A stretch of DNA of 64,000 bases from Octopus vulgaris (Eukaryota). The stretch lies in assembly GCA_951406725.2 (NCBI GenBank), contig OX597818.1, positions 121,706,001 through 121,770,000 of the forward strand. Direction: 5' to 3'. The translations under genes were made by a program, and so were the position numbers. The notes under the pieces are model-generated. The model saw only the letters and a list, made by a program, of their open reading frames with translations. It made no database searches and was not told the origin of the DNA. Every line of letters starts with the position of its first letter. The first letter of the stretch is position 1. Positions 24,948-43,231 of the stretch are shown piece after piece.

Positions 24948-25795
24948 TCAAAGTGCTATTTTAAGTGAGTCATCATTTGGTGCCTTACTACATTGGCCTT
25001 GGTATGCAGGAAAGATTTTTATTTTGAATGCATGTGCTCTCGAAGTGTGTTTCGTATACTCTTGTGACAAGAGTATTTCAAGCTGAGGAAGGGATGTCGC
25101 TCCGACCAATCTTCCGGCAGCATTTTGTCCGTAGACAGCAAAGCCTTTGGTCTCGTTACCCCGGACGCAACAGCCTCCAAGCCAAATCAGGTCTGGCACG
25201 TTAACTCCATTGCCAATGGTTACTTCTGGATCCACCGAAGGAACTGCACCAGCAACAAGATATAGTTGAGGCTTCTGAGCTTTCTCTTCAGTCGCTGATG
25301 AATCTGCCATCATTGAGGGCAGCGAACCGGAAGTGCCAACATTCTTGGTGTTGGCCGAGTTGGTTGATTTGGTGGCCATAGGTGTAGCAATAGTGGTAAA
25401 TGGAGTTGTTGATGACTGCGTTGGTTCTGTACTCTCAGTCACTGTTTTTTCTGCATCTATTTGAGGAACACCACATACATCAACGGCATATTTAATTATC
25501 ATTTTTGCTGCTTTTTTCCATTCTTTATAGAAGTCCATATGCATTGGAACTGTGTTCGTTAAAGCGAATGCTGCAATCTTCGTATCTATTTGGTGACCGG
25601 CCAACTGTGGAGGTAGAAGATGACCAATACGATAGGTGGTGGTGAAATCATAGTCACTCGGTTGAGGCTGGTACTTGCCAACGGCGCATTGATCGTTCTG
25701 AATTTCATCTTCGAGTTCACTAAGAGCTGCCAGACCTTTCTTACGATATTGAACAATGTAAAACCAGGATGCACGTGCTTGTTTATCGATCAAAG
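24948..25795 (-). CDS. Terminal exon D: C-terminal half of DNA/RNA non-specific (beta-beta-alpha-metal) endonuclease-like domain
   Basis: Acceptor ttatattcttttcag|CT, phase 1, stop at 24948. Motifs YRIGHLLP (DRGH-like), AFALTNTVPM, LYLVAGAVP, VNVPDLIWLGGCC, GFAVYGQN and a C-terminal IFP..C are typical of ENDOD1-like nucleases. Confidence 0.9.
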
Positions 25796-26354
25796 CTGAA
25801 AAGAATATAAAAAAACAACGTGAAAATATTATAAAAATTAGACCCACAAATGTGTGCGTGCACACACACATACGCACACGCACACATACACATAAACACA
25901 CACACACACACACACACACACACACACACATGCACACATATAGATAAATATACATGTATAGGTATATACGTTGGTATATAAATGCTAAATTAAGATTCTT
26001 ATTTTAAAGCAAGTTTAAGAATAACTGAGAATTTTCTGTTGGGAAGACTCAATATTGAAACTAGAGTGAAATTTATTATAAAATTCGAGTCGTCTGTGAC
26101 TTTAAGTTTTACCTGTTAGCATTTTAACCAGGGTGGTTGAATAAATCATCGGGCAACAAGTACCCATCAAAACGAATTTTATATGTATATGCGTACGTTC
26201 GTGTGTTTGTAAATATTGTGTATAATATATATATATATATATATATATATATATGGATATAGATAGATGTAAGTATGCACATGTACGTATGTATATATGC
26301 ATATCTATCTATCTATCTATCTATCTATCTATCTATCTATCTATCTATATTATG

Positions 26355-26700
26355 TTACTTGTTTCAGTCATTTGACTGCGGCCATGCTAGAGCACCGCCT
26401 TTGGTCGAACAAATCGGCACCAGAACTTTTCTTTCTATCGGTCTCTTTTGCAGAAATGCTAAGTTACGGGGTCGTAAACACACTAACATCGGTTGTCAAG
26501 TGATGGTGGGGGCCAAACACAGACACACAAATTTATACATACAAACACACACACACACACACACACACACATATAAGACGGGATTCTTTCTGTTTCCGCC
26601 TACGAAATCAAGTCACAAGGCTTTGGTCGGCCCGAGTCTATAGCAGAAGGCACTTGCCCAAGGTGCGTGGCACCGAGCCCGGAACCATATGGTAGGGAAG
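26355..26700 (-). mobile_element. SINE family A, diverged copy in intron
   Basis: Shares acttgtttcagtcatttgactgcggccatgct and cacaaggctttggtcggccc blocks. Confidence 0.8.
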
Positions 26701-27121
26701 CACACACACACACAAACATCTATATCTATACACACGCACATACACACACATGCACACGCACGCACCCCCATGGTCATGAATGCTGCTAGCGTCATCCCTA
26801 CATTCAAGAAATGTTATACAAATGAACAGAGCATACATGTATACATGCATATACAAACACACACGTGTGTGTGTGTGTAAGTGTGAGTGTATAGACATCC
26901 ATCAACGATAATGGTTAATACAATTACATACATATATGAATATCTGTGAATGTATTTATATGTATGTGTGAGTGTTTGTGCGTGTATGTGTGTGTGTGTG
27001 AATGTATGTGCGTATGAGTGCATATAGACGTATACACAACATTTACAGAAAAATAAATTTACAGAAACAATAAAACGAAGAGAAGTGTCAAGAAAATGTA
27101 TACTGAACAAACAAGCATTAC

Positions 27122-40165: not shown

Positions 40166-40375
40166 CTGAAAAAGAGTGAAAGAAATATAAATATACTATT
40201 GATCTTATTGCTGTTGTTGTTGTTATTGTTGATGTTCTTGTTTTTCTAATTGTCGTTTTTATTATTATTGTTATTATTATTATTATTATTATTATTATTA
40301 TTATTATTATTATTATTATTATTATTATTATTATTATTATTATTATTATTATTATTATTATTATTATTATTATTA

Positions 40376-42530
40376 TCGAAGATTTTGTGTCTACCGGGGG
40401 TTTGTACTACTTGTCAAGTCACAACAAGGGCCTCAGACAGACAGTACTTTACGCCATATGCGTGCAAGTTCCAAGTAATGCCTTTTGCAATACAACTAGT
40501 TTGTAGGGTATTTCTAAAGTTTTCAGATGTCTTTTAGATTGAGTGGTACTGAACCCAATGCTCCGATGACAATAGGGATAACCTTTATATCTGACTCTCG
40601 TAGCTGCTGCATCTTAGCAACATCAATTCTCAGGTTTCCATATCTATCAGCCTTTTCTCTTTCTTTCATGATGATGTTTTGACCCCCTGACACTGTCACA
40701 TCAATTATTGGGCATTCTTGCTTGTCCCTTCTAAAGGTTACTATATCCGGCCTTCGGCGCTCTAACATCTTGTCTGTCTGGAAGTCAAAGTACCAGAGTA
40801 TTTTTGCCTTCTCCTTTTCGTTCATTACCTTTTTCAGTGCATGTTGGTACCAAACACCTGTAACCTCATATCTTAAGGCATAGTAGCCAGTTGAGGTTTT
40901 GGGCTACTTTGTCGTGTCTAAGCTTGTACTCTTTCTGCGCAAATCTTTCCCAAGCACTAACAATGTGAGTCACGCTTTCGACCCTCTTCCCACACATTCT
41001 TCAGAGGTTCGTTGCACTTGTGTGGTATATATTCTTTTCCACTGAGTTGGTATTCAATGCCTGGTCCTGGGCAATGATGATTAGGCTTTCAGCATTCTTT
41101 TTTAAGTCACCCTTGTTAAGTCACCGTCATGATGCTTCCTGGTCTTTTAATTTGTTGGTTTCACGGTGGAACCGACCATGTAATTCCATGCGGAGTAGGG
41201 TTTCTTCTCTCTCGATGGCTGTTCTTGATCGGAATTCATGGACACTCTCAAGTCCATTTTTGTTAAATCCTTCTGCATTAGCAGCATACTGTAGCAGGTC
41301 TTGTTTGCTGTTCATAAAATATTCTGCCATGTTTCTTTCACTGTTGATGCACTCCCGTACGCTATTTAGCCCCTCTTCATGTAGAGCCTGTGTACATTCG
41401 CCTTAGGGTGGAGGGCACCATACATTATCATTGTCTTTCGGGTAGTACGGTCGAGTTGGTTAATCTCTGCTTGTGTCCATTTCAGGATGGGTGCACTATA
41501 GCGGCCTACAGCAACCGCCCATATGTTGATGGCAGTCACAAAGTTCCTTGAGTTGAGTTTTGATTTCAAGAGAAGTTTAGGGCGTTTGAAATATGCAGTG
41601 ATGACCATGTCTTTCATTTCATTATGCAAGATATTATTCAGCTTCAGGATCCCAAGCTACTTGTACCCATCATCATCAGGGTCTTCCAATCTCTCTCTGC
41701 TTGGAAATTTTATGCCCAGACAATTTACTCTTTCCTCCCGCTTCAAAGTAAGCACCGCACACTTCCAGATACCGAATTCCATCCCTATATCCTTGCTGCA
41801 CATTTGCACATTTTCAACCAGCCTCGCCATTTCAGGCTCTGTTTCTGCGAACAGTGTTAAATCATCCATGAAGAGAAGGTGGTTGAGACGAGGTCCATTC
41901 TTTCTCAGTTCATAGTGCGCGTTGACTTTGCGTAGGACTTTAGAAAGTGGGATCAAAGGTATACCAAAGAATAGAGGTCAACAAGAGTTTCCTTGGTAGA
42001 TATCTCTTTTGCTCTTTTGATTGTTACCTCGGCTAAGTGCTGGTTGTTACATGAAAGACATATTTTCCAATTGTTCTTAATCAGTGCACACACGTTCTCA
42101 GCTTTTCTACACATGTCGAGTGTTTCCAAAATCCACGAATGCGGCAACATATTGTGAGCCTTCTTGAAGTCTATCCAGGCCATGCATAAGTTTTTTGGTA
42201 CTGTTTACAGTTCTTCATTATAACGTTGTCTATCACAAAGTGGTCCTTGGTGCCCTTGGATCCTTTTCTGCATCACTTTTGTTCTACTGGCAGTAGATCC
42301 TTTTCTGCAAGGAACGTATGTATTTTCTCTGCAAGGATACCTGTTAATACTTTCCATAGGAGATTAAGACAAGCAATGGGTCGGTAATTGCCAACCTCAT
42401 TACCCTTTGACAGATCTTTCACTAACAATGTTGTTTTTCCCTCTACAACCCACTCCGGAACTACATCGCTTTGTAAGCAATTGTCTAATTGCAAACAATT
42501 CTCTTGTGTGTTGACCTAAACCATTTTACA
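40376..42530 (-). mobile_element. 5'-truncated, decayed R4/Dong-like non-LTR retrotransposon (RT plus restriction-like endonuclease)
   Basis: Fragments NYRPIACL, WIDFKKAHNMLPHSWI, LNHLLFMDDL, a degenerate zinc knuckle *RMC..ESVTHIVSAW, RHDKVA, RRPDIV..IIDV..K..RY and VIPIVIGALG; the 3' end runs into (TAA)n. Confidence 0.9.
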
Positions 42531-42979
42531 ATATTTTAACAAGGGAAACAGCTTCAGAGATACGTATCAGTCTTGTCATGACCTCATCAAAATGCTCAGA
42601 CTTCACCGTACATACCAATGTATTAAGGAATAAATCAAGGAGTTTTCGTCAATTGACGTAATGTAATAGGTATGTATCATGAATACTCGGTTTGGTTTAC
42701 CATGAAAAACCCGGCTTCAGCCTCTGTCTTTTAATCATAACTACTCAGCACTATGTTTATATTCTCTATTCAAATTGAATGTTTATCGAGCGATGCCAAA
42801 TGTTTTCATTTTTTTCTTTTTCTATTTCATACATACATACATACGTACGTACATACTTACATGCACACACGCGCAGACACACACATTTTTCAAAAACTTG
42901 AACTATTGTGATTCAGTTTCAAGTCTCCGACTCGCAAATAGGAAAAAAAGGGAGTTCATACAAATCATCTAATATTTAC

Positions 42980-43231
42980 ATTTAATATCGATGTCCATCG
43001 GATCGTGTCCATTACATTCATAAACGAAGGATGTCTTTTCTTCACCATTAGCCGAATGACAGATCTTCTTTTCTGTGACTGGACAATTGCTAAACTGGAT
43101 GCGTTCTCCGGCACAGGTGATATTCGTGGCATTCTTTCCTGTAGCGACAGTGACGTTGCAAGACCGGAAACGGAAATCTTTATCGCCAGATTGAATCCAG
43201 GGTGACCAGGGACCCCACTTAGCTGAAGATT
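42980..43231 (-). CDS. Internal exon A of TSP1/ENDOD1-like gene: thrombospondin type-1-like module
   Basis: Minus-strand acceptor ttcttcttccacag|AA and donor T|gtaaat; 252 nt, phase 1-1. Translation ESSAKWGPWSPWIQSGDKDFRFRSCNVT...CAGERIQFSNCP has the WxxWxxW / RxRxC / CxGxxxQxxxC pattern of TSP1. An alternative donor ~36 nt earlier (T|gtaatg) is possible. Confidence 0.8.

What the first reader, a model, noticed from the sequence alone, without database searches (positions are those of the whole stretch)
24948..43231. Gene fusing a TSP1-like module, an unassigned Cys region and an ENDOD1-like nuclease domain
Seen: four minus-strand exons with canonical splice sites and all phase-1 junctions (252+30+543+848 nt) join into one open frame of about 557 aa. 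Known: TSP1 is an extracellular glycan/protein-binding module shuffled by phase-1 introns, and ENDOD1-like proteins I know are usually a single domain with or without TM segments. Inference: an exon-shuffled, probably secreted or surface protein with an architecture I do not recognise, possibly binding extracellular nucleic acid in mucus, gland secretion or immunity. The stretch DECLYSLYQ...SMPPCKY matches no domain I can name.
Basis: partly seen in the sequence, partly recalled or inferred. Interest (0 to 1): 0.75.

Follow-up and report, generated by a model that had tools for sequence, protein, structure and literature searches.

The report
Mollusc proteoglycan with disabled nuclease domain
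This is the back two-thirds of a real octopus gene, shared with snails and bivalves, whose secreted protein joins likely sugar-chain attachment sites and matrix-type modules to a nuclease-shaped domain that has lost its cutting residues, so it is probably a binding scaffold, not an enzyme.

Summary
The four minus-strand exons are real: 252+30+543+848 nt, all phase 1, 556 aa plus stop, one residue different from an Octopus sinensis RefSeq protein. Contigs from 4 of 4 runs splice the last intron and run on into the 30-nt exon. The window holds only the 3' part. Full orthologues add a signal peptide, an acidic stalk with Ser-Gly clusters (glycosaminoglycan-type sites) and, in many species, a follistatin/Kazal module most like agrin's eighth. 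The family spans cephalopods, gastropods and bivalves, and its tree follows mollusc classes. The TSP1-like repeat is genuine but shortened (no CxxS/TC). The Cys region is a small conserved domain with no known fold match. The last domain has the EndoG/NucA fold (Z about 20), but 0 of 38 family rows keep the metal-binding Asn or the helix Glu (controls 26 and 27 of 29). Best reading: a secreted proteoglycan whose head is a pseudonuclease, working as an extracellular binding scaffold. No tissue or functional data were found. The genes are predicted but uncharacterised in databases, and my searches found no paper on them.

The parts
42980..43231 (-). Exon (252 nt, phase 1/1): shortened TSP1-like repeat (about 43229-43080) plus a Cys-tied beta-hairpin (about 43079-42980)
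   Evidence: Splice sites; profile of five homologous exon peptides hits thrombospondin-1 at E 1.5e-4; model residues 14-71 align to solved TSRs at Z 3.0-3.6
40136..40165 (-). 30-nt micro-exon, linker (phase 1/1)
   Evidence: Loose end of contigs in 4 of 4 runs matches it; present in O. sinensis, O. bimaculoides and Argonauta proteins, absent from the O. vulgaris GenBank model
27369..27664 (-). Family-specific Cys domain (five conserved Cys; small alpha/beta; 15-aa cephalopod insertion), no known family or fold match
   Evidence: Cys kept in 18/18 to 20/20 covering rows; no Pfam hit; best structural Z 3.5, no Foldseek hit at E<=0.001
27122..27368 (-). N-terminal half of the ENDOD1-like domain (same exon as the Cys domain)
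   Evidence: Alignment to canonical ENDOD1-like proteins; structural match starts at model residue 205
24948..25795 (-). Last coding exon: C-terminal half of the ENDOD1-like domain with a disordered Ser/Thr insert (about 25418-25287) and the stop codon
   Evidence: junction 25795/27122 in 4 of 4 runs
25620..25631 (-). Degenerate DRGH motif (reads RIGH; His kept, Asp and Arg lost)
25506..25529 (-). Active-site helix: Tyr at the metal-binding Asn position (25529-25527) and Ala at the catalytic Glu position (25508-25506)
   Evidence: Alignment to NucA and counts
24400..24947 (-). 3' UTR (at least this far) with AATAAA at 24733, 24652 and 24451
   Evidence: Contigs cover it in 2 of 4 runs to the end of the stretch laid; motif positions

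Best explanation
The locus encodes the C-terminal two-thirds of a secreted, mollusc-wide proteoglycan core protein whose head is a catalytically dead ENDOD1/NucA-type fold. Shown: the gene structure, the orthologues, the fold, the loss of metal-binding residues, the Ser-Gly/acidic motifs, and the lack of a membrane anchor. Inferred: (1) the protein is secreted through its signal peptide; (2) heparan or chondroitin sulfate chains are built on one or two acidic Ser-Gly clusters in the stalk; (3) the follistatin module (where present) and the Trp/Arg-ladder TSR act as spacers and interaction modules; (4) the Cys domain is tied to the nuclease fold by one disulfide, and together they form a rigid head that binds a protein partner in matrix or on cell surfaces. 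It would work like a small agrin/testican-type matrix organiser or growth-factor modulator, using a retired nuclease as its binding domain, as ENPP1-3 use theirs.
For: Fold: Z 20.7 EndoG (rmsd 3.3, 219 aligned), 20.4 NucA, 19.5 Serratia nuclease, 18.6 ENPP3. Dead site: Asn 0/38, Glu 0/38, DRGH Asp 0/38, DRGH Arg/Lys 1/38, His 14/38 in family rows, against 26, 27, 15, 27 and 27 of 29 in canonical rows; roles of these residues from PMC3074123 and PMC5714182. Secretion: hydrophobic N-terminus in 15 of 18 rows, no transmembrane-like window in 18 of 18. Ser-Gly cluster with at least 3 acidic residues just before it in 16 of 16 rows, at most 1.1% of shuffles per row; this matches the xylosylation rule in PMC2063922. 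The Ser-Gly plus follistatin module best matches human agrin 668-746 (34 bits; other agrin repeats at most 17), where PMC4859157 places the heparan sulfate cluster between repeats 7 and 8. Five conserved Cys in the Cys domain plus one family-only Cys in the nuclease fold (19/19 against 0/23); pTM 0.72 for the 572-aa model. Tree follows mollusc classes, family branch 100/98.
Against: No expression, localisation, glycosylation or binding data were found. Ser-Gly motifs are not always used. Octopus keeps the general-base His. The follistatin module is missing from 8 of 18 models, so it is not essential. The Cys domain is net basic in 12 of 12 rows (+1 to +14) and the octopus nuclease core is +7, which would also suit a polyanion such as DNA or glycosaminoglycan. 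The 38 rows include near-duplicates (five Mytilus-type, three Haliotis) and unnamed fragments assigned by score and motif. The partner is unknown.
Confidence: 0.6

Rival explanations
1. A dead nuclease that still binds extracellular DNA or RNA (scavenger, decoy or trap-binding protein in haemolymph, mucus or matrix). This is.
For: Precedent: Smad MH1 lost catalysis and kept DNA binding (PMC5714182). The Cys domain is basic in 12 of 12 rows and the nuclease core is net positive in 10 of 12. The fold is intact.
Against: The DRGH Arg position is I/P/M/V/T in most rows (1 of 38 basic). The Arg 6-9 residues before the EPQL-type Glu is in 4 of 18 family rows against 19 of 29 controls (its role is recalled). 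An acidic, probably sulfated stalk would repel nucleic acid. Gene identifiers and three short peptides were not found in the octopus skin-mucus proteome supplement (weak, since identifiers may differ). A class-congruent tree fits a conserved developmental or structural role better than a fast-evolving immune one (inference).
Confidence: 0.2
2. An active nuclease or phosphodiesterase with altered chemistry (for example Tyr as nucleophile).
For: Octopus keeps the His and has Tyr at the Asn position, and Tyr is the commonest residue there (19 of 38). PacI-type enzymes use a Tyr, though in a different place.
Against: That position varies (Y, F, V, Q, H, M, L, A), the His is Pro or Gln in 22 of 38 rows, and no row keeps His, Asn and Glu together (0 of 38 against 24 of 29). 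Even the cuttlefish-like orthologues have Gln for His.
Confidence: 0.07
3. A shell, shell-field or cuticle matrix protein (acidic, sulfated) of conchiferan molluscs, kept in octopus for stylet, beak or skin matrix.
For: All named members are shelled-lineage molluscs; the stalk is 16-28% Asp/Glu; follistatin/Kazal and TSR modules occur in shell proteins (recalled).
Against: The Lottia orthologue's identifiers were not in five supplementary files of the Lottia shell proteome, PMC4094399. The protein is well conserved in octopus, which has almost no shell.
Confidence: 0.11
4. A gene-model artefact: the TSR exon belongs to another gene.
For: Long introns (about 2.8 kb and 12.5 kb) full of repeats; the junction into the TSR exon was seen for one base only.
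Against: The same order of domains in single proteins from octopus, argonaut, mussels, abalone, limpet and others, including records from sequencing-run assemblies on 2.6-4 kb contigs.
Confidence: 0.01

Closest known systems
DNA/RNA non-specific endonucleases (Serratia nuclease, NucA, EndoG; Pfam Endonuclease_NS) and fish-type ENDOD1-like proteins
   Same: Same fold (Z 19.5-20.7); six Cys and the core motifs shared with ENDOD1-like proteins.
   Different: Metal-binding Asn, helix Glu and DRGH Asp/Arg lost; below the Pfam cut-off (best 16.8 bits against 23); family-only hairpin insertion, extra Cys, and N-terminal modules.
Human/tetrapod-type ENDOD1
   Same: ENDOD1-like domain after a signal peptide. 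Two unnamed hits with that layout (P0206, P0148) also lack the His and the Asn.
   Different: Human ENDOD1 is 500 aa with three C-terminal transmembrane segments (bioRxiv 2020.10.14.339309); this family has none. P0206 and P0148 fall apart from the mollusc branch in an unrooted tree, which suggests separate losses of catalysis; support for the deep branches is modest.
ENPP1/2/3 nuclease-like domain
   Same: Extracellular, catalytically inactive His-Me finger domain inside a multidomain protein; Z 15-18.6.
   Different: No phosphodiesterase or somatomedin-B domain here, so no enzyme partner domain in the chain.
Agrin (and testican/SPOCK; TMEFF/tomoregulin is recalled, not tested)
   Same: Ser-Gly cluster directly before a follistatin module, best matching agrin 668-746; secreted modular proteoglycan plan.
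   Different: At most one follistatin module; no NtA, laminin-EGF, SEA or LG domains found by Pfam; ends in a pseudonuclease.
Thrombospondin type 1 repeat
   Same: WxxWxxW, RxR and three of the later Cys; profile E 1.5e-4 to thrombospondin-1.
   Different: Lacks the CxxS/TC element (two Cys and the O-fucose site, PMC9198472); below Pfam cut-offs.

Membership tests
DNA/RNA non-specific endonuclease (NucA/EndoG/ENDOD1-like) | Fold of the Serratia/NucA/EndoG nuclease | tested here: met
   Z 20.7, rmsd 3.3, 219 aligned to EndoG; 20.4 to NucA; profile E 5.7e-13 to NucA with a mixed alignment
DNA/RNA non-specific endonuclease (NucA/EndoG/ENDOD1-like) | General-base His of the DRGH motif | tested here: inconclusive
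   Kept in octopus and in 14 of 38 family rows; Asp 0 of 38 and Arg/Lys 1 of 38
DNA/RNA non-specific endonuclease (NucA/EndoG/ENDOD1-like) | Metal-binding Asn at the start of the active-site helix | tested here: not met
   Tyr in octopus; 0 of 38 family rows against 26 of 29 controls
DNA/RNA non-specific endonuclease (NucA/EndoG/ENDOD1-like) | Catalytic Glu on the helix (NucA E163, EndA E205) | tested here: not met
   Ala in octopus; 0 of 38 against 27 of 29; role
DNA/RNA non-specific endonuclease (NucA/EndoG/ENDOD1-like) | Pfam Endonuclease_NS above gathering score | tested here: not met
   No hit for the octopus proteins; best family score 16.8 against 23
DNA/RNA non-specific endonuclease (NucA/EndoG/ENDOD1-like) | Nuclease activity | not testable with these tools
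   Needs an assay
Thrombospondin type 1 repeat | WxxWxxW and RxR ladder | tested here: met
   Trp 18/20, 19/20, 19/19; Arg 13/13 and 12/12
Thrombospondin type 1 repeat | Six Cys including CxxS/TC | tested here: not met
   The element is replaced by a short turn in the alignments
Thrombospondin type 1 repeat | TSR fold | tested here: inconclusive
   Model residues 14-71 align to BAI1, thrombospondin-1 and properdin TSRs at Z 3.0-3.6, 45-53 residues, rmsd 2.4-3.1; low Z, small domain
Proteoglycan core protein | Ser-Gly with nearby acidic residues | tested here: met
   16 of 16 rows; shuffles at most 1.1%; outside the window, seen in orthologues
Proteoglycan core protein | Signal peptide | tested here: inconclusive
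   Hydropathy only: hydrophobic N-terminus in 15 of 18 rows; no signal-peptide predictor run
Proteoglycan core protein | Covalent glycosaminoglycan chain | not testable with these tools
   Needs lyase digestion or glycoproteomics
Follistatin/Kazal module | EGF-like plus Kazal_2 domain | tested here: met
   Kazal_2 above cut-off in P0005, P0006, P0032, P0033, P0063, P0064, P0091; below it in P0007; absent from 8 of 18 models; outside the window
Agrin | NtA, nine follistatin repeats, SEA and LG domains | tested here: not met
   Pfam shows at most one Kazal and none of the others
Human/tetrapod-type ENDOD1 | C-terminal transmembrane segments | tested here: not met
   Best 19-residue hydropathy at most 1.62 in 18 of 18 rows; layout of human ENDOD1

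The most novel reading that the evidence does not exclude
An undescribed phylum-level invention: early molluscs joined the heparan-sulfate-bearing Ser-Gly/follistatin unit of an agrin-like gene, a trimmed TSR and a new Cys domain to a nuclease, retired the enzyme, and have kept the result ever since as a dedicated extracellular ligand or matrix organiser. Its head would be a new receptor- or morphogen-binding unit (new Cys fold locked onto a pseudonuclease), acting for example at synapses, basement membranes or the shell field.
Probability: 0.25. Interest if true: 0.7.

Novelty: new variant of a known kind. Interest (0 to 1): 0.45.

Why it matters
It points to a conserved, uncharacterised mollusc gene family that Pfam largely misses (only the Kazal part is called, and one GenBank model is named as a kinase). 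It gives a clear case of a secreted pseudonuclease, apparently separate from those of ENPP1-3 and tetrapod-type ENDOD1, and a small Cys domain with no match among solved folds. Conservation across cephalopods, gastropods and bivalves suggests a core role in extracellular matrix or signalling that can be tested in squid, Crepidula or oyster embryos. It does not by itself overturn a general principle.

Tried and rejected
No whole genome was held, so upstream exons and copy number were not examined. Pfam on the three long window exons gave nothing at E<=1. Cys region folded alone: mean pLDDT 61.5, pTM 0.47; its core (about residues 111-190) stayed at 72-86, the hairpin before it fell to 43-57. 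Fold searches of that model gave best Z 3.5 with scattered EVH1/PH-like rows and no Foldseek hit at E<=0.001; this does not prove a new fold. An exon-C profile against PDB sequences gave one hit at E 0.46. The Cys region is not a second TSR (hhalign probability 0.2%). The Atlas gave only TSP1 clusters at 0.75-0.76 for the abalone TSR-plus-Cys part, a lead only. A third homolog search with the family alignment returned 5 cephalopod-type proteins and no new taxa, so the range outside molluscs is open; only 10 of the library hits were looked up for names. No RNA holder was on record as RNA; run labels are coded, so no tissue was learned. Complex prediction of the Cys domain with the nuclease domain was not available. 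Earlier scan findings: none shown. Rfam: 0 matches. Supplements searched without a hit: PMC4094399 (5 files), PMC9712504 (3 files; one scanned PDF unread), PMC10138644 (1 file), PMC12607849 (1 file of 393 characters). A first count used a column off by one for the Asn and was redone.
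Full report
Observation. The window is AT-rich, microsatellite-rich animal DNA. The exon-C peptide is 100% identical to a GenBank protein of Octopus vulgaris. Each has an AG acceptor after a pyrimidine tract, the first three have GT donors, and all junctions are phase 1. Joined, they read 556 residues and a stop, and differ at 1 position from O. sinensis XP_029636028 residues 318-873. Contigs from 4 of 4 runs laid (RNA by the tool's guess; four studies) cover the last two exons, skip 25796-27121 exactly, and leave the genome at 27665 into the micro-exon. 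The 30 loose letters shown are 29 nt of the micro-exon and one base that fits the 252-nt exon and not the intron. The stretch laid did not include the two upstream exons, so that junction rests on this one base and on orthologous proteins.

The whole gene. The window lacks the 5' part: tblastn and an exact 6-mer search found nothing for residues 1-316 of the O. sinensis protein, so the next exon lies more than 20 kb upstream. Full orthologues (O. sinensis 873 aa, O. bimaculoides LOC106884390 871-1007 aa, Argonauta 871 aa, a cuttlefish-cluster protein of 868 aa) start with a hydrophobic N-terminus, then an acidic Ser/Thr-rich stalk with two Ser-Gly clusters, then an EGF-like plus Kazal (follistatin) module. 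The O. vulgaris GenBank model omits the follistatin part and the micro-exon, has another N-terminus and is named as a probable kinase.

Range. A region search found Mytilus proteins at 27-29% identity. A profile search of 1.84 billion representatives gave 368 hits at E<=0.001 and listed 150. I looked up 10 of these: nine are molluscs (Haliotis, Lottia, Sinanodonta, Physella, Littorina, Mya, Dreissena, Babylonia, and one unnamed record) and one is a fish tandem ENDOD1-like protein. A tree of the nuclease region (18 family rows, 29 canonical rows) puts the family on one side of a 100/98 branch, with cephalopods, mussels and kin, the other bivalves, and gastropods each together. This fits one inherited gene; copy number was not tested. 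No named member lies outside molluscs, but many fragments are unnamed. Single-exon fragments from other genomes end at the same place as octopus exon C, so the intron inside the nuclease domain is old. The follistatin module is in 10 of 18 N-terminal rows and missing from the Sinanodonta, Mya, Dreissena, Physella, Littorina and Babylonia models and two unnamed rows. That may be loss or skipping of a symmetric exon.

The TSP1-like repeat. A profile of five exon peptides hits thrombospondin-1 at E 1.5e-4, then UNC5A and properdin. The model aligns to solved TSRs at Z 3.0-3.6. The three Trp, the RxR and three Cys are nearly invariant. The CxxS/TC element, which carries two of the six Cys and the O-fucose site (PMC9198472, passages), is replaced by a short turn. 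So it is a trimmed TSR, below Pfam cut-offs.

The Cys region. It has five Cys kept in 18/18 to 20/20 covering rows, with conserved CxYSLYD-like and WC motifs. AlphaFold2 gives a hairpin, short helices, a strand and a long helix, at pLDDT 72-92 apart from a cephalopod insertion. The core folds about as well alone. No Pfam family, PDB sequence or solved fold matches it (best Z 3.5), which is not proof of a new fold. Six Cys of the nuclease domain are shared with canonical proteins. A seventh is family-only (19/19 against 0/23). Five plus one suggests a disulfide between the Cys domain and the nuclease fold, and pTM 0.72 for the 572-residue model fits a fixed arrangement.

The nuclease domain. 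Model residues 205-572 match EndoG (Z 20.7, rmsd 3.3, 219 aligned), NucA (20.4), Serratia nuclease (19.5), EXOG (18.9) and ENPP3 (18.6). The Atlas also points to Endonuclease_NS (0.92). In this family His is the general base, Asn binds the metal and a helix Glu is crucial (PMC3074123, passages; PMC5714182, passages and one section). Octopus has RIGH for DRGH, Tyr for the Asn and Ala for the Glu. Over 38 family rows: Asn 0, Glu 0, Asp 0, Arg/Lys 1, His 14. Over 29 canonical rows from the same search: 26, 27, 15, 27 and 27. The 38 include near-duplicates and unnamed fragments, and the 29 were picked by hand from the top hits. The scaffold residues stay invariant while the catalytic ones drift, which is the pattern of a pseudoenzyme under selection for another use. 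Two unnamed hits laid out like human ENDOD1 (C-terminal hydrophobic segments; human layout from bioRxiv 2020.10.14.339309, passages) are also degenerate but sit among other canonical rows, away from the mollusc branch (unrooted, modest deep support). Other hits show ENDOD1-like domains fused to a trypsin domain or to Cys-rich tails, so fusion as such is not rare; this combination was seen only in the family.

The stalk. All 16 rows tested have a Ser-Gly cluster with three or more acidic residues in the eight before it; shuffles of each stalk gave this in at most 1.1%. This fits the rule for glycosaminoglycan attachment (PMC2063922, passages). A short IDLD-type motif lies upstream in 12 of 16; its role is unexplained. 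In cephalopods the second cluster abuts the follistatin module, and the pair best matches human agrin 668-746, Ser-Gly included (34 bits; other agrin repeats at most 17). A review places agrin's heparan sulfate cluster between repeats 7 and 8 (PMC4859157, passages; the primary paper was not read). In mussels, abalone and limpet the cluster next to the module is weaker or absent, and the more N-terminal one is kept. Fifteen of 18 rows have a hydrophobic N-terminus and none has a transmembrane-like segment later.

How it most likely works. A secreted core protein carries sulfated chains on its stalk, which hold it in matrix or on cell surfaces and gather heparin-binding factors. An optional follistatin module and a trimmed TSR follow. 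The head, made of the Cys domain and the dead nuclease fold, binds a specific partner, most likely a protein. I put this at 0.6 overall; loss of catalysis alone at about 0.9. Nucleic-acid binding without cutting (0.2) has precedent in Smad MH1 and some support from positive charge, but the DRGH Arg and a second Arg near the EPQL-type Glu are mostly gone. Active enzyme 0.07; shell or cuticle matrix 0.11; artefact 0.01.

What is known. Databases hold these proteins as uncharacterised, hypothetical or Kazal-like; one UniRef fragment is labelled as a non-specific endonuclease domain protein. Paper searches: 'endonuclease domain' + mollusc + Kazal + secreted gave 0; 'endonuclease domain-containing' + octopus gave 0; none of the 20 listed of 327 mantle/shell papers used 'non-specific endonuclease'; the gene-identifier search was flooded by a number string and none of the 20 listed of 3,636 held an identifier, so it is inconclusive. 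The library lacks most subscription papers, bioRxiv supplements were closed, and one supplement was an unreadable scan; expression tables there may bear on function. Searches were seen as listings; PMC1939731 and PMC2858651 as passages; PMC4094399, PMC9712504, PMC10138644 and PMC12607849 only through supplement searches.

Verdict. New variant of known kinds; interest 0.45.

Noticed in passing
window 40526-41977 (-): Broken non-LTR retroelement inside the intron between the 252-nt and 30-nt exons; RVT_1 hit at 41660-41977 (E 2.2e-7).
   Followed up: partly
window 15311-15763 (+): Mariner-type transposase remnant (HTH_32 E 4e-9, Transposase_1 E 3.1e-5).
   Followed up: partly
window 59577-59852 (-): GIY-YIG endonuclease fragment (E 4.5e-7), probably from a Penelope-like element (recalled).
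   Followed up: partly
window 6174-7009: Satellite of a 26-bp unit, 32 copies, 95% matches.
   Followed up: no
window 26357-26402: Short interspersed repeat in the last intron with very high contig depth in all four runs; near-identical copies at 10637 (+) and 57685 (-).
   Followed up: partly
window 24840: All four runs lack one base here relative to the window (3' UTR), possibly an assembly slip or allele.
   Followed up: no
P0005, P0008-P0012 (O. bimaculoides isoforms): Up to four 34-aa repeat exons are spliced in or out just after the signal peptide.
   Followed up: no
P0021, P0023, P0031 (cuttlefish-cluster records): Proteins that stop right after the follistatin module; may be short isoforms or retained introns.
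   Followed up: no
P0117, P0144, P0162, P0183, P0192, P0197: Other multidomain ENDOD1-like proteins: one with a trypsin domain, several with C-terminal Cys/Trp-rich repeats.
   Followed up: no
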